This document shows, one piece after another, positions 35,066 through 55,431 of a stretch of DNA of 64,000 nt. Source of the stretch: an uncultured Actinomycetes bacterium (GTDB lineage Bacteria; Actinomycetota; Thermoleophilia; Gaiellales; Gaiellaceae); assembly GCA_963717025.1 (NCBI GenBank), contig CAVQVJ010000003.1:964969-1028968 (forward strand). The letters are read 5' to 3'. The notes beneath the pieces are model-generated. The model did no database searches and was not told the DNA's origin. It saw only the letters and a list, made by a program, of their open reading frames with translations. The first letter of the stretch is position 1. Every line of letters begins with the position of its first letter. The position numbers were made by a program, and so were the translations under genes.

Positions 35066-35204
35066 GGGCCGGGATCTCGGGCGCTTGCCAGGCCTCTGGC
35101 CGAGCTCTTTCAGCTGTGGCGCGGAACCATGCGGTCCAGAGCACATGGTCCCGCGCCACGAGTCTCGGTGCCGCTCCGGGTGGACGTCTCCACCCAGAGA
35201 ACGC

Positions 35205-35218
35205 TTCACCGGGGTGAA
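35205..35218. promoter_or_regulatory. Palindrome site 1: TTCACCGGGGTGAA
   Basis: One central mismatch to TTCACCCGGGTGAA. It lies in the gap between two convergent gene ends (35065 and 35276). GGGATC box at 35231. Confidence 0.5.
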
Positions 35219-35275
35219 CGGCTAGGCGATGGGATCACGCCGAGGATGACGAACCGCAGGTCGCGATGGTCGCGG

Positions 35276-35701
35276 CTACTCGAGGTCGCAGTCGTCCGGA
35301 GCGGCGGCTTCGAGTGTCTCCCAGGCGGTGACGGCGGCGCTCACGGACGCGCCGATCGCGGCCAGCGACTCACTGGTCAGCTCGTCTTGCGCGGAAGCCG
35401 TCTCGACGTCGGCGACGATGTCCTCCACGCTCGCCTTGAGCGTGTCGATCTCCGTACCCAGGTCCTCTTCTACGACGGCCTGCGCCTCATTGGCGTCGGT
35501 GAGGACCTGGTTCGCCGCTTCATCGAGCTCTGCGACAGTCGTGTCGTCGAGCTCGATGTCCTGGAGACTCTGAACCGAGCCCTGAAGATCCTGCAGGCTC
35601 TGACAGACCTCGGACTCCTCGCCTCCGCAGCCGACGCCGAGCACGAGCATGGCGAAGGCTGCGGCCACCAGAAGCAGGGAGCGGTTCACGCCGCACATCA
35701 T
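35276..35701 (-). CDS. Lipoprotein, acidic helical (141 aa)
   Basis: ATG 35701 (MMCGVNRSLLLVAAAFAMLVLGVGCGGEE..). Lipobox LGVGC. The remainder is acidic and coiled-coil-like. The longer track ORF upstream is unsupported. Confidence 0.65.
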   Translation of the reverse strand: MMCGVNRSLLLVAAAFAMLVLGVGCGGEESEVCQSLQDLQGSVQSLQDIELDDTTVAELDEAANQVLTDANEAQAVVEEDLGTEIDTLKASVEDIVADVETASAQDELTSESLAAIGASVSAAVTAWETLEAAAPDDCDLE

Positions 35702-35740
35702 CCTCACCGAGGACAGCGTCGGCCTCACCCGCTGACCGGT

Positions 35741-35754
35741 TTCACCCGGGTGAA
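35741..35754. promoter_or_regulatory. Palindrome site 2: TTCACCCGGGTGAA (perfect)
   Basis: Divergent gap, 40 nt from the lipoprotein start and 95 nt before the small ORF at 35849. GGGTGT box at 35765. Confidence 0.6.
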
Positions 35755-35848
35755 CATCCAGGTCGGGTGTTTCCTCGTCGAGCCGCGAGCGCCAGTGTCT
35801 CGAAGCGTGATCTAGCCCCCGATCTGCCGGGCGACGAAAGGAGAAACG

Positions 35849-36022
35849 ATGTGGTGGTTCATCGGAATTGGTGGACTCCTCGTGTACCTGATCCTGTTGT
35901 GGACGCTCGGTCTCACCACGCTGAGAAACGGACATGGCTGGATGTTCGTCTTCGGGTGCTTCTTCCCGGTGTTCTGGCTCATCGGGGCGTTCATGGCGCC
36001 GGCGAGCCAGGAGTACGCCTGA
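35849..36022 (+). CDS. Small membrane protein (57 aa), not in the ORF track
   Basis: AAAGGAGAAAC RBS then ATG: MWWFIGIGGLLVYLILLWTLGLTTLRNGHGWMFVFGCFFPVFWLIGAFMAPASQEYA. Two hydrophobic helices. Confidence 0.55.
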   Translation: MWWFIGIGGLLVYLILLWTLGLTTLRNGHGWMFVFGCFFPVFWLIGAFMAPASQEYA

Positions 36023-36173
36023 GCTTCGAGCGAGACGGAGAACACGCGTGGCCAGGTCGGCCAAGCTGTAGTTCACCGGCTGCACGTGACTCCTGAGTGA
36101 GCGAGCAGCGTTCAGGCTGGGCGCCGCGGTCTGGCACGCGGCGCCCTCTTCCCTGCTTTGGAGCCGTCGTGCT

Positions 36174-37499
36174 CTACGACGGCGCCTCGCCTCTTACGTC
36201 CTCGGCGTCCCGGTGCCTGCGCGACAGCCCAGCTGCCGACCGGTGTGGACGCTGCTCGGGGGCCGGTGCACTTTCGAACGCGGGCGTGGCGTCGCGCGGG
36301 TGGGCCGCGAACCACGCCGCGTAGCGCCCTGCGAGCGGCGTTGCCGTCACGCCGTGCAGGAGGACCGAAAGGGCGATCGTGAGGAAGATGGTGTTCAGCA
36401 GCAGCGATTCGTTCGCGAGGTGGGCCTCCTCTACGAGGATCACCGCAAAGACGATCGACGCCAGGCCACGCGGCCCGAACCAGCCGAGGAAGGCGACCGT
36501 CGGTCGCCCGGCTCCGGATCCCAGCATCGCCAGACCGACGGGAACCACGCGAACGAGCGTCAGGCTGAGCAGCGCATAGAGGACGATCTCGGCGGAGAGG
36601 TCGTCGAGTACGGGCACGAGCATGACGGCGCCGAAGAGGACGAACGTGACTGCCCCGAGCAGGCTGCCCGTCTCCTCGAGGAAGAACGTCACTTCGCCTC
36701 CGACCTCGCGGCGGAACCCGCCGAAGACGGCACCGCCGACGAACGCCGCGATGAACCCGCTGCCGCCCATCCACACGGCCAGGCCGTAGGCGAGCGCGGC
36801 ACCGGCGACCGGGGCGACCTGGAGCCAGCTCGAATCGACCAGGCCGCGAGGGACGCCCACCCTGACCACGGCGGCGGCCGCGAGCCCCGCAATCACGCCG
36901 CCGAGGGATCCGTATCCGATCTCCTCGAGCACGAGCTCCACCGCCTCGCCGTCTCCGATCGCGCCCTCTTGCGCCTCGGCTATCGCGATCGCGATCAGGA
37001 GGAGCGGCACGCAGATGCCGTCGTTGAGCCCGCTCTCGACGTTCAGCCCTTGACGGACACGTGAAGGAACGCGGGGATCGGTGACGACCGCCTGCCCCAG
37101 TGCAGCGTCGGTCGGGGCGAGCACGATCGCAAGCAGGACGGCCTCGATGAGCACGAGCTCTCCCAGCAGGGCAGCACCCGCAAGAGCGCCGGCGACAATG
37201 GTCAACGGCAGCCCGATCCCGAGCAGGCGAAGCGGGAGGGTGTACTCGCGGCGCAGCGCTGCGAGGTCGATCCGTGACGCGTCTGAGAAGAGCACGACCG
37301 TCAGGGTCGCCTCGGCGACCATGCGGACGAACTCGTTGTCGATCGTCGGATCGAGCCAGCCGAGCGCCTCGTCGCTCACCAGGATGCCACCGGCGACGAA
37401 CACAATCGCAGCCGAGATCACCGACCCCGAGAGCCGACGCGAAGCTCCCGCATACACGAGAAGCAGGAGGGAGATCGCAACGAGGCCCGAGTCGCCCAA
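36174..37499 (-). CDS. Cation:proton antiporter (CPA1, Na+/H+ exchanger family)
   Basis: 441 aa, about 11-12 TM, with the LAPTDAALG and ESGLNDG motifs of Na_H_Exchanger. TTG start at 37499 with GGAGGAG 9 nt upstream. Confidence 0.85.
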   Translation of the reverse strand: MGDSGLVAISLLLLVYAGASRRLSGSVISAAIVFVAGGILVSDEALGWLDPTIDNEFVRMVAEATLTVVLFSDASRIDLAALRREYTLPLRLLGIGLPLTIVAGALAGAALLGELVLIEAVLLAIVLAPTDAALGQAVVTDPRVPSRVRQGLNVESGLNDGICVPLLLIAIAIAEAQEGAIGDGEAVELVLEEIGYGSLGGVIAGLAAAAVVRVGVPRGLVDSSWLQVAPVAGAALAYGLAVWMGGSGFIAAFVGGAVFGGFRREVGGEVTFFLEETGSLLGAVTFVLFGAVMLVPVLDDLSAEIVLYALLSLTLVRVVPVGLAMLGSGAGRPTVAFLGWFGPRGLASIVFAVILVEEAHLANESLLLNTIFLTIALSVLLHGVTATPLAGRYAAWFAAHPRDATPAFESAPAPEQRPHRSAAGLSRRHRDAEDVRGEAPS

Positions 37500-37579
37500 C
37501 TCTCACTCTCCTCCGGTGGTCTCGTTCAAGCTCGCGACGTTAGCGCCAGGGAGATCGCGCTTCATCGCCCGAAATCGAG

Positions 37580-37593
37580 TTCACCCGGGTGAG
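37580..37593. promoter_or_regulatory. Palindrome site 3: TTCACCCGGGTGAG, nested inside an outer inverted repeat TTCATCGCCCG / CGGGCGATGAA
   Basis: Divergent gap between the antiporter (start 37499) and the DedA gene (37709). The outer arms are at 37561..37571 and 37603..37613. Confidence 0.6.
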
Positions 37594-37708
37594 TGGCCGT
37601 CCCGGGCGATGAACGGTCGGGCTACGGCTTCTAGCATCGCGACCATGCGCCAGGACGCGGGCGTCGGCGTCCCGGCCGACTCTGCAGCGAGGAGACGGAG
37701 CACGTTTG

Positions 37709-38485
37709 ATGGCGGTCGAGCTCGAGCAGCAAGATCGGCTGTGGAAACGACACCTCGGCGCCTTGATCGTCGGCGGCTTTGCAGTCCTTCTCGTCGTGAT
37801 CGTCCTGCTCCAGCTCGTGGAGGACGGGGACATCGAAGAGTGGCTCGCCGAGGCGCCGAAGGAATGGGCCTACGTCCTGTGCTTCTTGCTCGTCTGGCTC
37901 GATGCGGTCATCCCGATCTTTCCCGGCGAGACGACGCTCAGCGCTGCTTCGACCCTCGCCGCAGAGGGAAGCCTCGAGCTCGAGCTCGTGATGCTGGCCG
38001 GCGCGCTCGGCGCGATCCTCGGAGACTCGTCGCTGTTCTGGATCGCCCGCAAGAGCGCCGCGAGAGTGCAAGGCCAGCTCGACAGGGCGCTCGAGAATCC
38101 GAAGGTACGCGCCGGCTGGGACGCCCTCGACCGCTCCCCCGGGCTCATGATCGTCGCCGGCCGGTACGTCCCGGGGATGCGCTTCGCCGTCAACGCGACC
38201 ATGGGGCTCTCGGACATTCCCTACCGCCGCTTCCTCCCCTGGTCGGTCCTCGGCGGAATCCTGTGGTCGGTGTACACGTGCACATTGGCCTACAAGGTCG
38301 CGAGCACGCTCTCCGGCTTTCCACTTGCGTCGCTCGTCATCTCCTCGCTCATCACCTCGGCCGCACTGGCAGCGATCTACTTCGTCGACCGGCGGAGGAG
38401 GAGCGCAGCGAAGGGCGCCGACCCAGCCGATGTGAGCGAGGAGCCTGCGGCCCGGCCGAGCCCTGCCGGATCCGACGAGTCATGA
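37709..38485 (+). CDS. DedA-family (SNARE-associated) membrane protein
   Basis: VWLDAVIPIFPGETTLSAASTLAA and GRYVPGMRFAVNATMG motifs. ATG 37709 is 8 nt after GGAGACGGAG (the track starts at 37706). Confidence 0.85.
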   Translation: MAVELEQQDRLWKRHLGALIVGGFAVLLVVIVLLQLVEDGDIEEWLAEAPKEWAYVLCFLLVWLDAVIPIFPGETTLSAASTLAAEGSLELELVMLAGALGAILGDSSLFWIARKSAARVQGQLDRALENPKVRAGWDALDRSPGLMIVAGRYVPGMRFAVNATMGLSDIPYRRFLPWSVLGGILWSVYTCTLAYKVASTLSGFPLASLVISSLITSAALAAIYFVDRRRRSAAKGADPADVSEEPAARPSPAGSDES

Positions 38486-39375
38486 GTCGGCACGAGGCAC
38501 CCGACTCCGGCCTCGACGATCGCGCGCGTGTCAGACTCACGGCCGCGGTTGCAAGCGCACGACAGGCCAGCACACGGCACGTGTCGCTCGCGGTCCCTTT
38601 CCGCGCAGCGGAACGAAACCGCCGCGTCGCAGCAAGCGTTCTTGCCGGTGGGATCGCCTACCGCCTGTTCCTGTGGCTCTTGCCGCTCGGGTTGATACTC
38701 GGGGGCGCGCTCGGCCTCATGGATGCGGACAGCACCGAGGAGGCCCTTGCGAACGGCGGTCTTCCGGCGGCCGTCGTCGACATGATCGGCGACGTCGCGC
38801 GTGCCGCGGAATCCGACTGGTGGTGGCTCCTCGGGCTTGGCGTGCCGCTCCTCCTCTGGGCGGGATACACGGGCGCGAGAGCGGTGCAGCTCATTCACTC
38901 GCTCATCTGGGACGAGCCCCCTCCGCGGGTCAAGCCGTGGAAGAGTTCACTTGCCTTCACGGGCGTGCTGTGCGCCTTCATGGCCGCGTTCGCACTCACG
39001 TGGTGGCTTCGTGACAACGCGTCGCTCGAGCGCCTCCTCGCGGCCACGCTCGCCACGGTCCCACTCGCCGGGTTGTGGCTCTGGGCTTCCCTCCGCCTTC
39101 CGCACCGGGACGCTCCCTGGCGGGCGCTGCTGCCCGGCGCGATCCTCGTCGCGCTCGGCGCTCAGGTGCTCCACGGGCTGATCGTCGAGTTCCTCGCGCC
39201 GAAGCTCGAGAAGTCGACCACGCTGTACGGGACCCTCGGCATCGTGACCACGATCCTCTTCTTCATGTACTTCGCTGGGAGGCTCGTCGTCACCTCGCCC
39301 ATTCTCAACAGTTCCCTCCATCACGAGCTCCGCACACAGAGTGATGACGGCGGCGATGCGGGGCCCGCGACTTGA
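38482..39375 (+). CDS. YihY/BrkB-family membrane protein
   Basis: ATG 38482 (ATGA overlap with the DedA gene) is in frame with the track ORF ending at 39375. Has AGGIAYRLFLWLLPL... and the C-terminal YGTLGIVTTILFFMYFAGRLVV typical of this family. Confidence 0.75.
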   Translation: MSRHEAPDSGLDDRARVRLTAAVASARQASTRHVSLAVPFRAAERNRRVAASVLAGGIAYRLFLWLLPLGLILGGALGLMDADSTEEALANGGLPAAVVDMIGDVARAAESDWWWLLGLGVPLLLWAGYTGARAVQLIHSLIWDEPPPRVKPWKSSLAFTGVLCAFMAAFALTWWLRDNASLERLLAATLATVPLAGLWLWASLRLPHRDAPWRALLPGAILVALGAQVLHGLIVEFLAPKLEKSTTLYGTLGIVTTILFFMYFAGRLVVTSPILNSSLHHELRTQSDDGGDAGPAT

Positions 39376-41126
39376 CGCGCGACGACCGTCGCGGCGCGCT
39401 GGACTCGTACGCACGCTCGCTGATTCCAGGGTCTCTGGCCGAGGCCGCGCCGGGACTGGCGATGCTGCTTCGCTATCCGCGCTCGCACCTCCGGTCCGAT
39501 GTCGTGGCCGGAATCACAGTCGGAGCCGTGGCGGTGCCCTCGTCTCTGGCGATGGCGGAGCTCGCCGGGCTGCCTGTGGAGTACGGCTTGTACGGAACGT
39601 TTCTGCCGCTTGCTGTCTACGGGCTGCTCGGGACGTCGCGGCAACACGTGGTCGGGCCCGACTCGACGTTGGCGGCGCTGACCGCAGTGACCGTCGCCCC
39701 GATGGCCATGGTCGGAGGCGAGGTCGACCCGGCGCTCTATGTGGCGCTCGCAGCGGCACTGGCTCTGGCAATGGGTCTTCTGCTCTTCCTGGCGGGCGCG
39801 CTCCGGCTTGGGTTTCTCGCGGACTTCTTCGGCAAGCCTGTGCTGCTCGGCTACATCAACGGGGTCGCGCTGATCGTGATCTCGTCCCAGCTCGGCAAGC
39901 TCCTCGGGGTCAGCGTCGGCGCGGACGACTTCTTCGCGATCGTGTGGGAGGTCTTGTCGGAGCTCGGCGACGCGAACGGGCCGACGGTGCTCCTGAGCGC
40001 GGGGCTGCTGTCGGCGGCAATCGTGACTCGGCGCGTCCTTCCTGTCTTTCCGCCGTCTCTCGTGGTGCTTGCGCTCGCACTCGTGGTCGCGGCGCTCGTC
40101 GACCTGGACGATCACGGGATCGCCGTCGTCGGCGAGGTCGAGGGCGGGCTTCCCTCGTTCGGGCTGCCGGGAGTTGGAGCAAGCGACTTCCTCGATCTCG
40201 TGCTCCCCGCGGCGGCGTTCGCGCTCGTCGCGTTCGCGGACCTCACCGCGACTGTTCGCACCTTCGCGCAGAAGCACGGCTACGAGGTCGACGCAAACCG
40301 TGAGTTGACCGCGATCGGCGGCGCCAATCTCGTTGGCGGGTTGACCGGGGCGTTTCCCGTCTCCTCCTCCAACTCGCGGTCCGCGGTCAATGATTCAGCC
40401 GGCGCGAAGTCGCAGGCTGCCGTCCTCGTCGCCGCGGTAGTCGTCGGGCTCTTCCTGATCTTTGCGATGCCCCTGATCGAGCCGCTGCCGACGGCGGCGC
40501 TCGGAGTGATCATCGTCGTGGCCGCTTCCGGGCTGATCAACGTCAACTCGATCTGGCGGCTCCGGCACGTGCGCCCGGCCGAGGTCGCGCTCGCGCTCGT
40601 CGCCTTCGGCGGCGTGCTCGTGTTCGGCGTCCTCGGCGGCGTCGTCGTCGCAATCGCGCTATCGATCGGCGTGTTCCTCTACCGCTCGGCGCGTCCGCAC
40701 GATGCCGTTCTCGGACGCTTCGACGACGTCGACGGCTATCACGACATCGCGCGCGGGGAGGGTGCCCAGACGGTGCCCGGACTGCTCATCTATCGCTTCG
40801 ATGCGCCGCCGTACTTCGTCAACGCGGAGTACCTCAGACAGCGCGTGCTCGAGCTTGTCGACGCCTCCGAAGACGTCAGATGGTTGGTGCTCAACGCCGA
40901 GGCGTGGACGTACCTCGACGCCACGGCGATCGATGTCGTGACTCACCTTCAGGTCGAGCTGGAGCAGCGTGGGATCGTGCTCTGTTTCGCGCGCCTGAAG
41001 GGACGCCAGCGCGAGATCTTCGAGGAGACGGGCCTCACCGCCCGGATCGGCCCCGACCGTTTCTTCCCCACCGTCCGGGCCGCGGTCGCGGCATTCGAGT
41101 CGGATGTTGCGGACCGGCGGAGCTGA
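39372..41126 (+). CDS. SulP-family anion transporter with a C-terminal STAS domain
   Basis: 584 aa. DVVAGITVGAVAVPSSLAMAELAGLP and GYINGVALIVI motifs. STAS part (LLIYRFDAPPYFVNAEYL...). The start is uncertain (TTG at 39372 or an internal ATG near 39462). Confidence 0.85.
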   Translation: MTRDDRRGALDSYARSLIPGSLAEAAPGLAMLLRYPRSHLRSDVVAGITVGAVAVPSSLAMAELAGLPVEYGLYGTFLPLAVYGLLGTSRQHVVGPDSTLAALTAVTVAPMAMVGGEVDPALYVALAAALALAMGLLLFLAGALRLGFLADFFGKPVLLGYINGVALIVISSQLGKLLGVSVGADDFFAIVWEVLSELGDANGPTVLLSAGLLSAAIVTRRVLPVFPPSLVVLALALVVAALVDLDDHGIAVVGEVEGGLPSFGLPGVGASDFLDLVLPAAAFALVAFADLTATVRTFAQKHGYEVDANRELTAIGGANLVGGLTGAFPVSSSNSRSAVNDSAGAKSQAAVLVAAVVVGLFLIFAMPLIEPLPTAALGVIIVVAASGLINVNSIWRLRHVRPAEVALALVAFGGVLVFGVLGGVVVAIALSIGVFLYRSARPHDAVLGRFDDVDGYHDIARGEGAQTVPGLLIYRFDAPPYFVNAEYLRQRVLELVDASEDVRWLVLNAEAWTYLDATAIDVVTHLQVELEQRGIVLCFARLKGRQREIFEETGLTARIGPDRFFPTVRAAVAAFESDVADRRS

Positions 41127-41228
41127 GCGACTCCGCTGCTTCCGACTCACGGCAGCGCAGTGGTCACCTGGCTACGGAACCTGAGCGATCAATCGTGAAC
41201 TTGCAGTCCGTGTCGCAAGCGCCGCGTA

Positions 41229-41990
41229 CTACGAGCCCTCGCGGCGCGCCGGCCACCAGGCCGGCTCCTCGGCGGTTCCGGTCTGGACTGCGAGGGCAAG
41301 CGAGTCGAAGACCGACCATGCCTCGACGATCTTGTCGTCGTCGAGCGTCAGAAACGCGGAGCCGTGGATTTCGATCGCATTGCCGCTCGCCGGCAGATCG
41401 GACCGCTGCTCCCCCGTGTGCGTGCCCGCGAGCACCCACTCGATGGCGATCTGGTCCTTCGCGCGGATCTCCTGCGAGAGCTCCATCCTGATGTCGGGCA
41501 CGATCGAGCGCCAGTACCCGATGCTCTCCTCAGCCATAGCGGGGCCGCTCTCGTTGGGACCAAGGTCGGGCGAAAAGCCGTTCATGAAGACGGCACAGTC
41601 CGGCGCGACGTGCTTCTCAGCCTCGCTGAAGTCGCCCTCGTTCCAAGCGGCCACGAGGAACTTCACGGCCGGATGCTTCGGCTCGTGCTCCTCCTGCTTG
41701 CCGTGTCTGAAGTGCCTCACGGCCAGAGCGCCGAGTGTGGGGATGATCGCCACCCCGACGTCGGCGGGCAACAGGAGCTTGGCCAGCACCCAGCTGCAGA
41801 GAGCGGCGAGCGTCAAGTCCGCCAGGAAAAGACGCTTCTCGTCCCCCTTGACCACAAGACGAGGGAAGTGCATCGCACCGACGTCGTCCTGCGGACTCGC
41901 GAGATCGGGCATCAACGGCGGCAACTCCTCGGCTAGCGCCGTGGTGTTGGCGGGACTCTTGATCGGGAAGTCAGTGATGACTTGGCTCAC
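41229..41990 (-). CDS. Membrane-anchored SnoaL-like (NTF2-fold) protein
   Basis: 253 aa. GTG start with GGAGG 7 nt upstream. Central TM segment, C-terminal ester-cyclase/SnoaL-like pattern (FLVAAWNEGDF...IEIHGSAFLTLDDDKIVEAW). Confidence 0.6.
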   Translation of the reverse strand: MSQVITDFPIKSPANTTALAEELPPLMPDLASPQDDVGAMHFPRLVVKGDEKRLFLADLTLAALCSWVLAKLLLPADVGVAIIPTLGALAVRHFRHGKQEEHEPKHPAVKFLVAAWNEGDFSEAEKHVAPDCAVFMNGFSPDLGPNESGPAMAEESIGYWRSIVPDIRMELSQEIRAKDQIAIEWVLAGTHTGEQRSDLPASGNAIEIHGSAFLTLDDDKIVEAWSVFDSLALAVQTGTAEEPAWWPARREGS

Positions 41991-42024
41991 GGAGCCCTCC
42001 TCTCACAGGATGACGGGCCGCCGC

Positions 42025-44928
42025 CTAGGCGCTGACCCCGTGGGCCGCGGCGACGTGCGCGCCGGTCTCGTGCAGCGCCAGCTCGTCCTCGTGGCTGCCC
42101 GGCTTGAGGTCGTAGACGACCTTCTTCACCGTGCCGGTGAAGGGGTAGGGCGACTTGGCTGCGTAGGCGCGATCGACGGGTAGGCCGTTGTCGCGGCCGA
42201 CGTCCATGCCGGCGTAGGCCGTGAAGCGGACTGAGACCGTGCTCTCCATCCGCCCCTCGCCGATCTTCTCGTCGTTCGCCCACAAGGAGACCGTTCCGCC
42301 GGCCCTGCGCTCCTGCCGGTCGGAGTCGAACAGCATGCGGACCATGACGTCCCCGGTCGGAATGGGCTCGGTCGAGACCTGCTCGTACCGCTCGACGCCC
42401 ATCGTCGAATAGCTGTGGTGCAGCAGGCCGTCTTCGTCGACCCAGAGCGAGAAGCCGCCCATCTCGTCCCCCTCGGCGACGATCACGCCCTCGGCGCCCT
42501 CGTCGGGGACCCAGAGCTCCGCCTCGATCGCGTACGAGCGGCCGTAGACGCGCGGGATCATCCCGGAGGCGATGTTCTCGACGTCGCCGTAGAACGTCTG
42601 GGTCGTGATCGTCGGCATCGGCGGCAGGATCCCGAAGAAGACCGAGAATGCAGCCAGCAGCGGCAACACGTTGTGCTTCTCCGCCTCCTCCCAGAAGAGC
42701 TCCTTGAGCTCGGCGAGCTTCTCCGGGTTCTCCGCGGCGAGGTCCTTCGCCTGGCTGAAGTCGTCGGGCAGGTAGTACAGCTCCCAGGTGTCCTGCTCCG
42801 GGTCGTAGACTCCGGGGGCCAACTTGGCCATCGTCGGCGGCGAAAGGTCCCACGGGATGCGGTCGAGCTTGCAAGCGGCCCACCAGCCGTCCTTGTAGAT
42901 CGCCCGGTTGGCCACGATCTCGAAGTACTGCACGGTGTGGCGCTCCGGTGCGTTCGCGTCGTCGAAGGTGTAGAGAAAGCTCGTCCCCTCCATCGGCTTC
43001 TGCTCGATCCCGTCCACGACCTTGGGCTCCGGGATACCGGCCGCTTCGAGGACTGTCGGCCCGACGTCGATGACGTGAGTGAACTGGCTTCGCAACCCGC
43101 CGGCATCCGTGATCCGCTCCGGCCAGGCGACCACCGTGGCGTTGCGCGTGCCGCCAAGGTGGGAGGCGACCTGCTTGCCCCACTGGAACGGCGCGTTCCC
43201 GGCCCACGCCCAGGCGGACGCGTAGTGCGGCGCGTACGCGTCGGTACCCCACGCGTCGAGCCCGCCGTACTGCTCGATCAGCGAGAGCTGCTGGTCGGCG
43301 GTGAGGGCGAACCCGTTCTGCATCGTCAGCTCGTTGAAGGAGCCGGTGAGCGTTCCCTCCAAGCTCGCGCCGTTGTCCCCGAAGATGTAGATGACGAGCG
43401 TGTTGTCGAGCTCGCCCATCTCCTCGACCGCGTCGAGCAGGCGGCCCACGTTCCAGTCGGCGTTTTCCTGGAAGCCGGCATAGACCTCCATCTGCCGCGC
43501 GTATAGCGTCTTCTCGGCATCCGAGAGTGAGTCCCAAGCGGGGAGCGCGTCCGGTCTCGGCGTGAGCACCGCATCCGGCGGGATCACCCCCAGCGCCTTC
43601 TGCCGTTCGTAGGTCTCCTCGCGGAGCACATCCCAGCCCTGGTCGAACTTGCCGCGGTACTTCTCGCTCCACTCGACCGCGACCTGGTGCGGCGCGTGCG
43701 AGCACCCGGTCGAGTAGTAGATGAACCACGGCTTCTCCTGGTCCTGGGCGCGCACTTCGTGCAGCCAGCGCGCCGCCTGATCGGTGAGGTCGTCCGGCCA
43801 GTAGTACTCCTTGCCGTCCTCGCCCTCTGGCACGCCCAGGGTCGTGTTGTCTTGCGTGATCACTGGGTCGTACTGGCCCGCCTCGCCGCCGAGGATGCCC
43901 CAGAAGCGATCGAATCCCCATGCGTTTGGCCAGCGGTCGAACGGTCCGGCTGCACCCTGGACGTGATCGGGGGTCAGGTGCCACTTGCCGAACCCGGCAG
44001 TCGAGTAGCCGTTGCCCTGGAGCGCCCGCACGAACGGAGCGCAGTCCTTCGGCAGGCTCGCGCAGTACCCCGGGAACGGGCCAGGGAGCTCGCCGATCGA
44101 CCCGAAGCCGACCGTATGGTGGTTGCGGCCCGTCAGTAGGGCGGCCCGGGTGGGCGAGCACAGCGCGACAGCGTGGAAGCCGTTGTATCTGAGGCCTTGG
44201 TCGGCGACCCGCGTCATCGCCGGCGTGGAGACTGGCCCGCCGAACGTCGACGGGTTCCCGAAGCCCGCGTCGTCGATCAGGACGAGCAACACGTTCGGCG
44301 CGCCCTCCGGCGGCGACGGCGTCATGAGGATCGTCCAATCAGCGACGGACGTGTCGATGGTTCGGCCGATCGCGCCACCGAAGTTCGGATCCGGGATCGG
44401 CAGCACGGTGCGATCCGGGCTGAACTTCCCCATCGCCTCGCCGAGCGACTCCTTCAACGCGCCCATGCCCTCCTTGTCGCCCTGGACGATCGAGCGGAGC
44501 ATGGCGCCCGCGAGCGCCTGCTCGACACCCACTCGCTGCTCGTCGTCGAAGATCGCGATGATCCCGGCGGACCCCGGCGGCAGGTTTTCGCCAATCTTGT
44601 CGTGAATCTCGTTCCGCACCTTGTTGCGGGCGAACCTGCCCATCACCTTGCCCGCGACCGCGCCGACGGCGACCGACGCGAGCATCGGCGGCGCGAACAA
44701 GCCCACCGCGAGCCCGACGCCGCCTCCCCAGCGGACTCCCTTGCGGCCAAGGTTGTCGCCGGTCTGCTGTACCGAGACGCTGCCGTCCTCCGCGTGCGTC
44801 ACGAGGATGACGCCCTCGATCGAGACCTTCTTCTCCTTGACGAGCGCGACGAGCGCCTCGAAGTCCTTCGTCGCCTGGTCGATGTCCGGGTACCCGGCAA
44901 CGAGGACATCGGTGGGTGTCTCAGCCAT
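42025..44928 (-). CDS. Fusion: DUF1269-like glycine-zipper membrane domain (N-terminal about 170 aa) plus Cys-type arylsulfatase
   Basis: 967 aa with an AAGGAGAG RBS. The N-terminus is DVLVAGYPDIDQATKDFEALV...EDGSVSV.....GGGVGLAVGLFAPPMLASVAVGAVAG (DUF1269 layout). The sulfatase core has PNVLLVLIDDAGFG and the formylglycine motif LCSPTRAALLTGRNHH. Confidence 0.8.
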   Translation of the reverse strand: MAETPTDVLVAGYPDIDQATKDFEALVALVKEKKVSIEGVILVTHAEDGSVSVQQTGDNLGRKGVRWGGGVGLAVGLFAPPMLASVAVGAVAGKVMGRFARNKVRNEIHDKIGENLPPGSAGIIAIFDDEQRVGVEQALAGAMLRSIVQGDKEGMGALKESLGEAMGKFSPDRTVLPIPDPNFGGAIGRTIDTSVADWTILMTPSPPEGAPNVLLVLIDDAGFGNPSTFGGPVSTPAMTRVADQGLRYNGFHAVALCSPTRAALLTGRNHHTVGFGSIGELPGPFPGYCASLPKDCAPFVRALQGNGYSTAGFGKWHLTPDHVQGAAGPFDRWPNAWGFDRFWGILGGEAGQYDPVITQDNTTLGVPEGEDGKEYYWPDDLTDQAARWLHEVRAQDQEKPWFIYYSTGCSHAPHQVAVEWSEKYRGKFDQGWDVLREETYERQKALGVIPPDAVLTPRPDALPAWDSLSDAEKTLYARQMEVYAGFQENADWNVGRLLDAVEEMGELDNTLVIYIFGDNGASLEGTLTGSFNELTMQNGFALTADQQLSLIEQYGGLDAWGTDAYAPHYASAWAWAGNAPFQWGKQVASHLGGTRNATVVAWPERITDAGGLRSQFTHVIDVGPTVLEAAGIPEPKVVDGIEQKPMEGTSFLYTFDDANAPERHTVQYFEIVANRAIYKDGWWAACKLDRIPWDLSPPTMAKLAPGVYDPEQDTWELYYLPDDFSQAKDLAAENPEKLAELKELFWEEAEKHNVLPLLAAFSVFFGILPPMPTITTQTFYGDVENIASGMIPRVYGRSYAIEAELWVPDEGAEGVIVAEGDEMGGFSLWVDEDGLLHHSYSTMGVERYEQVSTEPIPTGDVMVRMLFDSDRQERRAGGTVSLWANDEKIGEGRMESTVSVRFTAYAGMDVGRDNGLPVDRAYAAKSPYPFTGTVKKVVYDLKPGSHEDELALHETGAHVAAAHGVSA

Positions 44929-45026
44929 CAGGGCTCTCCTTCGATCGGACCGCTATCGCGGCTCGCGTGTGGCGTACGACCCGACCATGGCAGAGAGGCG
45001 TCCACCGAACATCGCCCTGCCGCGAC

Positions 45027-45040
45027 TTCACCCGGGTGAA
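45027..45040. promoter_or_regulatory. Palindrome site 4: TTCACCCGGGTGAA (perfect)
   Basis: Divergent gap, 99 nt upstream of the sulfatase-fusion start and 82 nt before the small ORF at 45122. GCGGGTGATGTG box at 45049..45060. Confidence 0.6.
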
Positions 45041-45121
45041 GGCAAGCAGCGGGTGATGTGCGATCTACGAGATTGCAGGAGTCTCCATCACGAGCCTGCC
45101 GTGCCGACCGAAGGGAGGCCG

Positions 45122-45289
45122 ATGGAATCGCTCTGGGTGCTCATGTATTCATGGCTCGCGGCGCCGGCGGTGGTTGCACTCGTGATCTTCAGCTGGTTCA
45201 ACGCCGCGGTGACGCGTGAGGCAGCGTATTCACGAGCGTCGAGAACCGCCGCGACCGGGCGGATGCGCCACGATCGACGCGTGACCTGA
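45122..45289 (+). CDS. Small membrane protein (55 aa)
   Basis: GGGAGG RBS 5 nt upstream: MESLWVLMYSWLAAPAVVALVIFSWFNAAVTREAAY... It is the tail of track ORF 44621..45289, whose upstream part is antisense shadow. Confidence 0.45.
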   Translation: MESLWVLMYSWLAAPAVVALVIFSWFNAAVTREAAYSRASRTAATGRMRHDRRVT

Positions 45290-45299
45290 ATCGGCGGAC

Positions 45300-45560
45300 G
45301 TGCAGCGACCGATGTCCAAGCACTACGCCGGCCGCAGCGGACAAGACCGCGTCCCTTACCGGATTGTGATCCGCGGCGAGCTCGGCGAGCCGCTCGTGGG
45401 ACCACTGGAAGGAATGACCGTCGAGGTCGCCGGCGAGGAGTCGGTGCTGGTCGGGGACCTCCTCGATCAGGCCCAGCTCCAGGGAGTGTTGAGCTGGCTG
45501 ACGACGCTCGGCGTCGAGATCGTCAGCGTGAATCCCGCAGACGACCAGTCGCCGCAATGA
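45300..45560 (+). CDS. Conserved-looking small hypothetical protein (86 aa)
   Basis: YRIVIRGELGEPLVGPLEGMTVEV...GDLLDQAQLQGVLSWLTTLGVEIVSV. I do not recognise a named family. The start is uncertain (GTG 45300 or ATG 45312). Confidence 0.55.
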   Translation: MQRPMSKHYAGRSGQDRVPYRIVIRGELGEPLVGPLEGMTVEVAGEESVLVGDLLDQAQLQGVLSWLTTLGVEIVSVNPADDQSPQ

Positions 45561-45577
45561 CTTAGAAAGGAGATGTG

Positions 45578-54624: not shown

Positions 54625-55323
54625 ATGGCGATTCGAGTCGCCATTGCGGACGACAGCGCTTTGGTCCGGGAGGGGCTGCAGCAGCTCCTCGCCGCTCACC
54701 AGAGCATCGAGGTCGTGGCTGCGTGCGACGACATGCCGTCGCTCCTCCAGGCCGTGGAGACCGTCCAGCCCGACGTGGTGGTGAGCGACATTCGAATGCC
54801 GCCCTCGAGAACCGACGAGGGCATCCAGATTGCAGTCCGCCTCCGGCAGCTCCATCCTGACATCGGAGTGGTCATCCTCAGCCAGTACACGGAGCCGAGG
54901 TATGCGCTGAAGCTCTTCGAGAGCGGCTCCGAGGGGCGCGCATACCTGCTCAAGGAGCGCGTGCGTGACTCCGAGCAGCTCGTGGCAGTCATCGAGTCCG
55001 TCGCCACCGGTGGATCGGTCATCGATCCCAAGGTCGTCGACGTGCTCGTGACCGCCAGGGCTCGCCCCTCGCCCGCGCTCGCCAAGCTCACCCCACGCGA
55101 GCGGGACGTCCTTGCCGAGATCGCCCAGGGAAAGAGCAACACGGCAATCGCCAAGTCTCTCGTGCTCAGCAAACGAGCCGTCGAGAAGCACATCCACTCG
55201 ATCTTCTTCAAGCTCGGTCTTTCCGAGGCGGAGGACGTCAGCAAGCGCGTGAAAGCGGCCCTGCTCCTTCTCGCCGAGGAAGGCACGGATGTGGGCGAGA
55301 GGGGACGCTCAGCAGCAGGGTAA
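54625..55323 (+). CDS. NarL/FixJ-family response regulator (REC plus LuxR HTH)
   Basis: ATG 54625 (MAIRVAIADDSALVREGL...VVVSDIRMPP...). C-terminal LTPRERDVLAEIAQGKSNTAIAKSLVLSKRAVEKHIHSIF. Divergent from the kinase gene. Confidence 0.85.
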   Translation: MAIRVAIADDSALVREGLQQLLAAHQSIEVVAACDDMPSLLQAVETVQPDVVVSDIRMPPSRTDEGIQIAVRLRQLHPDIGVVILSQYTEPRYALKLFESGSEGRAYLLKERVRDSEQLVAVIESVATGGSVIDPKVVDVLVTARARPSPALAKLTPRERDVLAEIAQGKSNTAIAKSLVLSKRAVEKHIHSIFFKLGLSEAEDVSKRVKAALLLLAEEGTDVGERGRSAAG

Positions 55324-55356: not shown

Positions 55357-55370
55357 TTCACCCAGGTGAA
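55357..55370. promoter_or_regulatory. Palindrome site 7: TTCACCCAGGTGAA
   Basis: 34 nt after the response-regulator stop and 62 nt before the ORF at 55432. GCGGGTGATGTG box at 55379..55390, an identical 12-mer to site 4. Confidence 0.6.
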
Positions 55371-55431
55371 AGGTGCTGGCGGGTGATGTGATGACGCCAG
55401 CGGGTGGGCGACACTGGGAAGCCGGAATCGA

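What the first reader, a model, noticed from the sequence alone, without database searches (positions are those of the whole stretch)
45027..45060. The palindrome is part of a larger directional element: a GGGTGA-like box sits 9-12 nt downstream at every copy, allowing two mutually exclusive pairings
After each palindrome, always on the plus-strand side, comes a box:
- GCGGGTGATGTG at 45049 and 55379 (identical 12-mers)
- GCGGGTGAGGT at 51157
- GGGTGG at 46392
- GGGTGT at 35765
- GGGCGA at 37604
- GGGATC at 35231

The gaps are 10, 10, 9, 12, 10, 10 and 12 nt. The box repeats the right arm of the palindrome (GGGTGA), so the element reads as left arm, right arm, then a right-arm copy.

I see two readings:
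- As DNA it could be a promoter with the operator overlapping the -35 region. TTCACC sits about 18 nt upstream of the box, but the box is not a TANNNT -10 hexamer.
- As RNA it could be a switch. The left arm UUCACCC could pair with either GGGUGAA or the downstream GGGUGA, which is the arrangement seen in attenuators.

A stand-alone GGGTGAT also precedes the micro-ORF and CYTH gene at 51733. The fixed orientation toward plus-strand genes is not explained by a purely symmetric operator.
Basis: seen in the sequence. Interest (0 to 1): 0.6.

Follow-up and report, generated by a model that had tools for sequence, protein, structure and literature searches.

The report
Promoter half-site of a MalT-like regulon
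The GGGTGA-like box next to each palindrome is real, but it is most likely a third DNA docking site at the -35 position of promoters switched on by the neighbouring MalT-like regulator, not part of an RNA switch; it belongs to a known kind of regulon.

Summary
GGGYGR lies 9-12 nt from the palindrome on 5 of 7 plus sides (null 0.009 per side).

The claim "always on the plus side" is wrong. Four sites carry a mirror-image box on the minus side, three of them facing minus-strand genes.

A -10-like NANNNT hexamer lies 20 nt beyond the box, 38 nt from the palindrome. In 219 non-redundant half-sites from related Gaiellales genomes this gives one sharp peak. Box and hexamer co-occur (Fisher 9e-11). 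This puts the box at about -40 to -33 and the palindrome centre near -57.

The palindrome follows a MalT-like LAL regulator (48661-51102, minus strand) across genomes. That regulator's recognition helix stays unchanged down to 47% overall identity.

The RNA-switch reading finds no support. The alternative pairing shows no covariation, there is no Rfam match, and the element lies upstream of the inferred start.

The closest precedent is the Actinoplanes MalT island (PMC7567727). This scan has already reported MalT-like regulon islands on other DNA.

The parts
35205..35218 (.). Palindrome copy 1 (TTCACCGGGGTGAA), an orphan site between the cyclase 3' end and the lipoprotein 3' end
   Evidence: Its minus side is orthologous to the promoter of an FGE-like gene in G002 (L005 682L).
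35188..35195 (-). Box GGGTGGAG, 9 nt from palindrome 1, with a -10-like GAGACT at 35161-35166. No gene follows here, so this is a relic promoter.
35741..35754 (.). Palindrome copy 2, between the divergent lipoprotein gene (-) and the 57-aa membrane ORF (+)
35723..35730 (-). Box GGGTGAGG for the lipoprotein gene. The -10-like GATGAT lies at 35697-35702, and a GTG follows 7 nt after it, so the transcript may be leaderless.
35765..35772 (+). Partial box GGGTGTTT for the 57-aa ORF, with a -10-like CAGTGT at 35793-35798
   Evidence: Conserved in L005, L060 and L062.
37580..37593 (.). Palindrome copy 3, between the Na+/H+ exchanger gene (-) and the DedA/VTT gene (+)
37563..37570 (-). Box GGGCGATG for the Na+/H+ exchanger gene, with a -10-like TAACGT at 37537-37542
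37604..37611 (+). Box GGGCGATG for the DedA operon, with a -10-like TAGCAT at 37632-37637
   Evidence: Box and -10 are conserved in orthologues while the spacer varies.
45027..45040 (.). Palindrome copy 4 (the site in the finding), between the DUF1269-sulfatase gene (-) and the 55-aa ORF operon (+)
45010..45017 (-). Box GGGCGATG for the sulfatase gene, with a -10-like CATGGT at 44984-44989
45051..45058 (+). Box GGGTGATG for the 55-aa ORF / p86 / p185 operon, with a -10-like GAGTCT at 45079-45084
46366..46379 (.). Palindrome copy 5, upstream of the SHOCT-SnoaL-GNAT-PRMT operon
46392..46399 (+). Box GGGTGGAC (gap 12 nt), with a -10-like TATCGT at 46418-46423
51136..51149 (.). Palindrome copy 6, between the LAL regulator gene (-) and the DUF7144 gene (+)
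51159..51166 (+). Box GGGTGAGG for DUF7144, with a -10-like GACAAT at 51187-51192. There is no box on the LAL side.
55357..55370 (.). Palindrome copy 7, after the response-regulator gene and upstream of p143-FGE
55381..55388 (+). Box GGGTGATG, with a -10-like GACACT at 55410-55415
48661..51102 (-). MalT-like LAL/STAND regulator, the proposed binder. It has a Walker A motif (GFGKTT) and a C-terminal GerE helix-turn-helix with recognition helix NTIHSHTKSIYQKL. The start codon is uncertain (51060-51102).
54626..55323 (+). NarL-family response regulator (REC + GerE), the rival binder. The divergent HisKA_3 kinase gene lies at 52661-54493 (-).

Best explanation
Each element is an activator-dependent promoter, or a back-to-back pair of them. 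The layout is a 14-bp palindrome, then 10 (9-12) nt, then a box GGG[T/C/G]G[A/G/T][T/G/C]G, then 20 nt, then a -10 hexamer NANNNT.

If transcription starts about 7 nt after the hexamer, the palindrome spans roughly -64 to -51 and the box roughly -40 to -33. No canonical -35 is present.

The box repeats the palindrome's right arm in direct orientation. I infer that it is a third, promoter-proximal half-site. The MalT-like LAL regulator encoded in the cluster would bind the palindrome as a dimer, and a further protomer of the oligomer would occupy the box and contact RNA polymerase at the -35 position, as MalT boxes do.

Shown here:
- the sequence architecture, its statistics and its conservation
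- the link between the box and the -10 hexamer
- the link between the palindrome and the LAL gene, and the conservation of the LAL helix-turn-helix

Inferred, not shown:
- the position of the transcription start
- which protein touches the box
- that the regulator activates rather than represses
For: 1. Window statistics. GGGYGR lies at 9-12 nt on 9 of 14 palindrome sides (null 0.009 per side). NANNNT lies at +37 to +39 on 11 of 14 sides (null 0.06).

2. Unselected, non-redundant half-sites from Gaiellales genomes.
- NANNNT peaks at +38: 55 of 219 sites there, 99 at +37 to +39, against a background of 0-12 per offset, mostly under 10.
- The box 8-mer peaks at +10: 35 of 219 sites, 45 at +9 to +11, and 0-3 at any other offset.
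- NANNNT follows 20-21 nt after the box in 39 of those 45.

3. In distant loci (LAL 47-73% identical; 54 clusters), box and -10 co-occur: 26 with both, 3 with box only, 1 with -10 only, 24 with neither (Fisher 9e-11).

4. In orthologous promoters the box and -10 are conserved while the spacers diverge.

5. Boxes face transcribed genes on either strand. Eight of 10 gene-facing sides in the window have a strict box and one more has a partial box (with gene calls from 10, 11, 16, 29).

6. All downstream start codons lie 7-70 nt after the hexamer.

7. No canonical sigma-70 promoter is found in the 20 kb, which fits dependence on an activator.

8. Regulator.
- An LAL homologue is present in 28 of 37 motif-bearing genomes of the genus, against 10 of 71 others (my tally of the lists). 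In most of the genomes checked it lies on the same contig within about 15 kb of a palindrome; G112 and G018 have it on another contig and in G023 it is 32 kb away.
- Nearly all loci around LALs of 47% identity or more carry 1-7 palindromes within 10 kb; the few without any are mostly short or cut records. None of the seven loci around LALs of 44% identity or less do.
- The LAL recognition helix is unchanged across all of these, while the full-length protein falls to 47% identity.
- The LAL aligns to E. coli MalT (8BOB, E 1e-50; NCBIfam MalT model, 339 bits).

9. Precedent. Actinoplanes MalT activates a 51-gene island through TCATCC-N5-GGATGA overlapping the -35, with its 3' end 34.4 +/- 1 nt from the mapped starts (PMC7567727). 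Here the 3' end of the box core GGGTGA lies about 35 nt from the inferred start.
Against: - No transcription start has been measured. The -10 is inferred from sequence alone, and its first base is usually G or C rather than the T typical of actinobacterial TANNNT hexamers.
- A NarL-type response regulator, often with a kinase, is encoded beside or near the LAL in the window and in many related loci.
- A GerE-type response regulator of Streptomyces, BldM, is known to recognise the same half-site, TCACCC/GGGTGA (PMC4125116). The response regulator could therefore bind the palindrome or the box.
- The box could be read by sigma region 4 rather than by the activator.
- The LAL's own side of site 51136 has no box.
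- About half of the promoter-bearing sides in the genus lack a box, so the box is not obligatory.
- Related genomes are not independent, even after the redundancy filter.
Confidence: 0.62

Rival explanations
1. The NarL-family response regulator encoded in the cluster (54626-55323), alone or together with the LAL, binds the palindrome and/or the box. The box would then be the site where the two-component signal enters each promoter.
For: - REC + GerE domains, with DevR and NarL as the closest solved structures.
- BldM, a NarL/FixJ-type regulator, binds TCACcCgnncGgGTGA, and a BldM-WhiI heterodimer binds a site containing a single CGGGTGA half-site (PMC4125116).
- A kinase-regulator pair sits directly upstream of the LAL in distant loci (L064 and L068).
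Against: - The response regulator's recognition helix is not conserved across loci that keep the same palindrome and box: KRAVEKHIHSIFFKL in one group, ERTARTHVSNVLRKI in another. The LAL helix is unchanged across all of them.
- In divergent genomes of the genus, no match to the cluster regulator at E <= 1e-35 was listed on the motif contig near a site, while an LAL lies within 0-15 kb. Weaker or diverged GerE regulators next to those LALs were not looked for.
- A 60%-identical paralogue of the response regulator is widespread in genomes that have no motif.
- The spacing between half-sites (0 nt) differs from the BldM box (4 nt).
Confidence: 0.15
2. The box is a -35-type element read directly by RNA polymerase sigma region 4, either the housekeeping sigma or an alternative one. 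The palindrome alone is the regulator's site.
For: - The box occupies the -35 region at a fixed distance from the -10.
- The last bases of the box plus the next three (xTGnnn) stand 17 nt from the -10, the canonical spacer (read from the sequences).
Against: - The conserved part, GGGYG, lies upstream of where a -35 hexamer would sit, and it copies the regulator's half-site rather than TTGACA.
- The three bases after the box are not conserved.
- No sigma factor gene was found among the cluster ORFs scanned.
- The box occurs essentially only next to the palindrome: 45 of 219 half-sites at +9 to +11, and 0-3 at any other offset.
Confidence: 0.13
3. This is the reader's second reading: an RNA switch or attenuator. 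The left arm would pair with either the right arm or the downstream box in a leader transcript.
For: The box is complementary to the left arm in the copies with GGGTGA, and the palindrome alone can form a hairpin.
Against: - The left-arm/box pairing has 0 pairs with compensatory change. 69.9% of cells are paired, equal to the shuffled mean of 70.2%. The central A-U pair is absent in 35 of 61 independent promoters, and the left arm is invariant.
- Mirror boxes serve divergent genes.
- A position-locked -10 lies downstream of the box, so the element is upstream of the inferred start.
- There is no Rfam match.
- No terminator-like stem with a T-run was found at any of the sites.
Confidence: 0.02

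Closest known systems
MalT (ACSP50_3915) regulon, the 'maltose-regulated large genomic region' of Actinoplanes sp. SE50/110 (Droste et al. 2020, PMC7567727)
   Same: An actinobacterial MalT-like LAL regulator is encoded inside a clustered regulon of poorly annotated membrane and enzyme genes. An inverted repeat of a GGxTGA-type hexamer is repeated in front of many transcription units. A half-site ends about 34-35 nt upstream of the transcription start and replaces the -35.
   Different: The Actinoplanes motif is TCATCC-N5-GGATGA, and the palindrome itself overlaps the -35. Here the arms are TTCACCC/GGGTGAA with no spacer, the palindrome sits about 21 bp further upstream, and a separate third half-site occupies the -35 position. 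Starts were mapped and mutants tested in Actinoplanes; nothing is experimental here.
E. coli / Klebsiella MalT and MalT boxes (5'-GGGGA(T/G)GAGG, core GGA(T/G)GA)
   Same: It is a STAND ATPase with a LuxR-type helix-turn-helix (8BOB alignment, E 1e-50). It multimerises and binds cooperatively to several asymmetric boxes per promoter, one of which overlaps the -35 (PMC4381067; PMC7567727). From my own knowledge, Vidal-Ingigliardi et al. 1991 described two boxes in direct repeat as the common motif; here the right arm and the box form a direct repeat.
   Different: The core differs at position 3 (GGG[T/C]GA against GGA[T/G]GA). The score against the NCBIfam MalT equivalog model is below its cut-off (339 against 537 bits). 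No maltose genes are present in the cluster.
BldM Group I box of Streptomyces venezuelae (5'-TCACcCgnncGgGTGA-3', PMC4125116)
   Same: The half-site is identical (TCACCC/GGGTGA) and is recognised by a GerE-type helix-turn-helix. In Group II sites a single CGGGTGA half-site is used.
   Different: BldM is an orphan NarL/FixJ response regulator, not an LAL. Its half-sites are separated by 4 nt, against 0 here. No proximal third box or fixed -10 distance was described in the passages I read.

Membership tests
LAL / MalT-type STAND transcription activators (the regulator) | N-terminal P-loop NOD (STAND ATPase) | tested here: met
   Pfam AAA_16. Walker A PPGFGKTTL aligned to E. coli MalT 8BOB over residues 88-464, E 1e-50.
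LAL / MalT-type STAND transcription activators (the regulator) | C-terminal LuxR/GerE helix-turn-helix | tested here: met
   Pfam GerE, E 9e-18. Aligned with GerE and NarL-family DNA-binding domains in the PDB.
LAL / MalT-type STAND transcription activators (the regulator) | Equivalence to MalT proper (NCBIfam equivalog cut-off; maltotriose sensor) | tested here: not met
   NF003420 scores 339.5 bits against a cut-off of 537 and covers model positions 6-527 of 903 only. It is MalT-like, not MalT.
LAL / MalT-type STAND transcription activators (the regulator) | ATP- and inducer-dependent multimerisation and cooperative DNA binding | not testable with these tools
   Needs biochemistry.
MalT-box type activator site (the DNA element) | Core hexamer GGA(T/G)GA | tested here: not met
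   The core here is GGG(T/C/G)G(A/G/T). Position 3 is G in 49 of 61 promoters. It is related to the MalT core but not identical.
MalT-box type activator site (the DNA element) | A box overlapping the -35, about 34-35 nt from the transcription start | tested here: inconclusive
MalT-box type activator site (the DNA element) | Several boxes per promoter, co-inherited with the regulator gene | tested here: met
   There are three half-sites per promoter. The motif tracks the LAL across genomes.
NarL/FixJ response-regulator palindrome (BldM-type box) | Inverted TCACCC/GGGTGA half-sites separated by 4 nt | tested here: not met
   The half-site sequence matches, but the spacing is 0 nt in all copies.
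Transcription attenuator / riboswitch-like RNA switch | Alternative pairings maintained by covariation | tested here: not met
   0 compensatory pairs; paired cells equal the shuffled mean.
Transcription attenuator / riboswitch-like RNA switch | Element lies within the transcribed leader and matches a known RNA family | tested here: not met
   A position-locked -10 lies downstream of the box. There is no Rfam match at the gathering threshold. A measured start is still lacking.

The most novel reading that the evidence does not exclude
The two spacings seen in the genus may show how a STAND oligomer extends along DNA. In one class the palindrome ends 38 nt from the -10 and a bridging third half-site is present. 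In a minor class it ends 27 nt from the -10 and there is no box. The difference is one helical turn. When the dimer site sits one turn further from RNA polymerase, an extra protomer on the box would bridge the gap. Alternatively, the box may be where the co-encoded NarL-type regulator joins the LAL, which would make each promoter an AND gate of two signalling systems.
Probability: 0.15. Interest if true: 0.55.

Novelty: new member of a known kind. Interest (0 to 1): 0.3.

Why it matters
The analysis gives a precise, testable promoter grammar (palindrome-N10-box-N20--10) for a MalT-like regulon of uncultured soil Gaiellales. The targets are ion transporters, a DUF1269-sulfatase with an FGE, a PRMT-like methyltransferase and small membrane proteins, and none of them has a known common function. 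The grammar allows regulon members to be predicted from sequence across many metagenome-assembled genomes. It also corrects a tempting misreading, namely that the element is an RNA switch or a plus-strand-specific element. It does not reveal a new kind of mechanism.

Tried and rejected
1. First search with a 2-nt central gap (TTCACCCNNGGGTGAA) found only a chance-level hit. The arms abut with no gap.

2. Rfam at the gathering threshold found only four tRNAs.

3. A canonical sigma-70 scan of 35100-55090 found 0 promoters, and terminator-like hits were at chance level.

5. I considered TTCACC as the -35 and the box as the -10. I rejected this because a much better positioned and conserved NANNNT lies 20 nt beyond the box.

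6. I considered a SigB/SigF-type GGGTAT -10. I rejected it for the same reason, and because no sigma gene was found in the cluster.

7. A crude GC3-phase call of gene direction in relatives was too noisy for short genes. I used it only as a rough tally.

8. I first argued that distant loci lack any response regulator near the LAL. One search showed a diverged kinase-regulator pair directly upstream of the LAL in L069, so I replaced that argument with the comparison of recognition helices.

9. The stand-alone GGGTGAT at 51733 has no -10 at the right spacing and is treated as chance.

Full report
**What is there**

The window comes from an uncultured Gaiellaceae genome assembled from a metagenome (record titles of near relatives). 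It has 3.06 Mb in 12 contigs and about 70% G+C.

The palindrome TTCACCCGGGTGAA, allowing one mismatch, occurs at 35205, 35741, 37580, 45027, 46366, 51136 and 55357. It occurs nowhere else in the genome.

Against the genome-wide frequency of GGGYGR (0.0023 per position), finding it 9-12 nt downstream on 5 of 7 plus sides has P of about 1e-9. GGGTGTTT at 35765 is a partial box conserved in orthologues. GGGATC at 35231 is not a box.

The arrangement is not plus-strand specific. Read on the minus strand, the same box lies 9-10 nt from the palindrome at four sites:
- 35188-35195
- 35723-35730
- 37563-37570
- 45010-45017

Three of these face minus-strand genes: the lipoprotein, the Na+/H+ exchanger and the DUF1269-sulfatase (gene calls). 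The fourth, on the minus side of 35205, is orthologous to the promoter of an FGE-like gene in a relative (L005 682L). That gene is absent here, which explains the 'orphan' copy.

Of 10 palindrome sides that face a gene, 8 have a strict box and one a partial box. The exception is the LAL regulator's own side of 51136. Of 4 sides with no gene, only the relic has a box.

**A third element fixes the geometry**

Twenty nt beyond the 8-mer box, which is 37-39 nt from the palindrome end, lies a hexamer with A at position 2 and T at position 6. Examples are TAGCAT, TAACGT, TATCGT, GACAAT, GACACT, GAGTCT, GATGAT, CATGGT and CAGTGT. It is present on 11 of 14 sides, against a null of 0.06.

I collected every palindrome copy from 96 fetched loci of related genomes and reduced them to 219 non-redundant half-sites, without any selection.
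- NANNNT shows a single sharp peak at +38: 55 sites there and 99 at +37 to +39, against a background of 0-12 per offset, mostly under 10.
- The box 8-mer peaks at +10: 35 sites there, 45 at +9 to +11, and 0-3 at any other offset.
- NANNNT follows the box by 20-21 nt in 39 of those 45.

In the most distant loci (regulator only 47-73% identical; 54 clusters), information content peaks at +11 to +18 and at +40 and +44. Box and hexamer co-occur: 26 with both, 3 with box only, 1 with hexamer only, 24 with neither (Fisher 9e-11).

In orthologous promoters the box and hexamer are conserved while the spacers diverge. Start codons of the downstream genes lie 7-70 nt after the hexamer.

I therefore read the hexamer as a -10. 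This is inference; no start has been mapped. It places the box at about -40 to -33 and the palindrome at about -64 to -51. No canonical sigma-70 promoter exists anywhere in the 20 kb, as expected for activator-dependent promoters.

**Who binds**

Two GerE-type DNA-binding proteins are encoded in the cluster.
- A MalT-like LAL/STAND regulator at 48661 to about 51102 on the minus strand. It has AAA_16 and GerE domains, scores 339 bits against the NCBIfam MalT model, and aligns to E. coli MalT 8BOB at E 1e-50.
- A NarL-type response regulator with a divergent HisKA_3 kinase.

The evidence favours the LAL.
- In the genus, the palindrome occurs in 37 of 108 genomes. By my tally of the lists, an LAL homologue is present in 28 of those 37 and in 10 of the other 71.
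- In most of the genomes checked the LAL lies on the same contig within 0-15 kb of a palindrome, including genomes that lack the rest of the cluster.
- Of 51 loci fetched through the LAL protein, nearly all of those with 47% identity or more carry 1-7 palindromes within 10 kb; the few without any are mostly short or cut records. None of the seven loci with 44% identity or less do.
- The LAL DNA-binding domain stays 69-97% identical, and its recognition helix NT(I/V)HSHTKSIYQKL is virtually unchanged, while the whole protein drops to 47%. This matches the invariance of the palindrome.

The response regulator cannot be dismissed by absence, because a kinase-regulator pair sits directly upstream of the LAL in distant loci. 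However, its recognition helix differs between groups that keep the same palindrome and box. A 60%-identical paralogue is also common in genomes without the motif.

**The RNA reading**

I took 61 non-redundant promoters, chosen only for having the hexamer at +38. In these, the proposed left-arm/box helix has no pair with changes on both sides. It has 69.9% paired cells, equal to the shuffled mean of 70.2%. Its central A-U pair is missing in 35 of 61, because box position 4 is T, C or G while the left arm never changes.

The mirror boxes, the downstream -10, the absence of any Rfam match and the absence of terminator features point the same way. I consider the switch model refuted as far as sequence analysis can go.

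**Comparison with known systems**

The nearest precedent is Actinoplanes sp. SE50/110. There the LAL regulator MalT activates a 51-gene island through TCATCC-N5-GGATGA, which overlaps the -35 and ends 34.4 +/- 1 nt from the mapped starts (PMC7567727). Here the core GGGTGA of the box ends about 35 nt from the inferred start. The dimer site, however, lies two helical turns upstream, and the -35 position is filled by a separate third half-site in direct repeat with the right arm.

E. coli MalT binds several asymmetric GGA(T/G)GA boxes cooperatively as a multimer. The core here differs at one position.

The half-site is identical to that of the BldM box of Streptomyces (TCACcCgnncGgGTGA, PMC4125116). 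This shows that a GerE fold can read it, and it keeps the response-regulator rival alive.

Earlier reports of this scan have described MalT-like regulon islands with palindromic operators on other DNA. The kind is therefore known. What is added here is the composite promoter grammar and the correction of the orientation claim.

**Limits**

All positions relative to the start are inferred from a sequence motif. Related genomes share ancestry, so the P values overstate independence even after filtering. The box pattern was defined from the data. Which protein contacts the box, and whether regulation is positive, remain untested.

Noticed in passing
L069 8697-12469; also L064 3754-6850 and L068 9551-12743: In distant Gaiellales loci a histidine kinase and a NarL-type response regulator sit directly upstream of the LAL gene on the same strand, in an operon-like arrangement. 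This suggests a two-component system to LAL cascade. In the window the pair lies 1.4-3.4 kb from the LAL instead.
   Followed up: partly
window 35161-35218 (minus side of palindrome 1): This side has a complete box plus -10 unit pointing at the 3' end of the cyclase gene, with no gene to drive. The orthologous promoter in G002 (L005 682L) drives an FGE-like gene, so this is a relic promoter or a possible antisense promoter.
   Followed up: partly
window 35690-35702, minus strand: The lipoprotein gene may be leaderless. The -10-like GATGAT is followed after 7 nt by a GTG that opens MNRSLLLVAAAFAMLVLGVGC..., a clean lipoprotein signal peptide.
   Followed up: partly
window 54565-54618: Upstream of the response-regulator gene there is a single half-site CCGGGTGAC, followed 39 nt later by TATTGT. 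This could be a weak, degenerate copy of the same promoter design in front of the regulator.
   Followed up: no
window 51097-51116, minus strand: A short inverted repeat GCACC-N10-GGTGC lies in the leader or promoter region of the LAL gene and is conserved in orthologous regions (L008, L016, L022, L004). A GAYCGT -10-like hexamer lies before it at a variable distance from the palindrome.
   Followed up: no
L006 2983, L012 3191, L018 1942, L031 3784, L007 3334, L017 11746, L029 2072: A minor second promoter class occurs in other species of the genus. The palindrome ends 27 nt before the -10 (TGnGATACT or TATACGCT) and no box is present. This is 11 bp, one helical turn, closer than the box-bearing class.
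   Followed up: partly
window 37645-37706: An ATG 7 nt after the DedA promoter's TAGCAT is conserved in relatives but is out of frame with the DedA (VTT) ORF in the window. In one relative (L005) it is in frame. The true start of this gene, or a small upstream ORF, remains unresolved.
   Followed up: partly
window 45300-45560 (p86) and homologues in L038-L045: An 86-aa protein with no Pfam or NCBIfam match is the most constant neighbour of the LAL gene in divergent genomes. It often lies across a palindrome-bearing gap from the LAL, so it is a candidate core target or partner of the regulator.
   Followed up: partly
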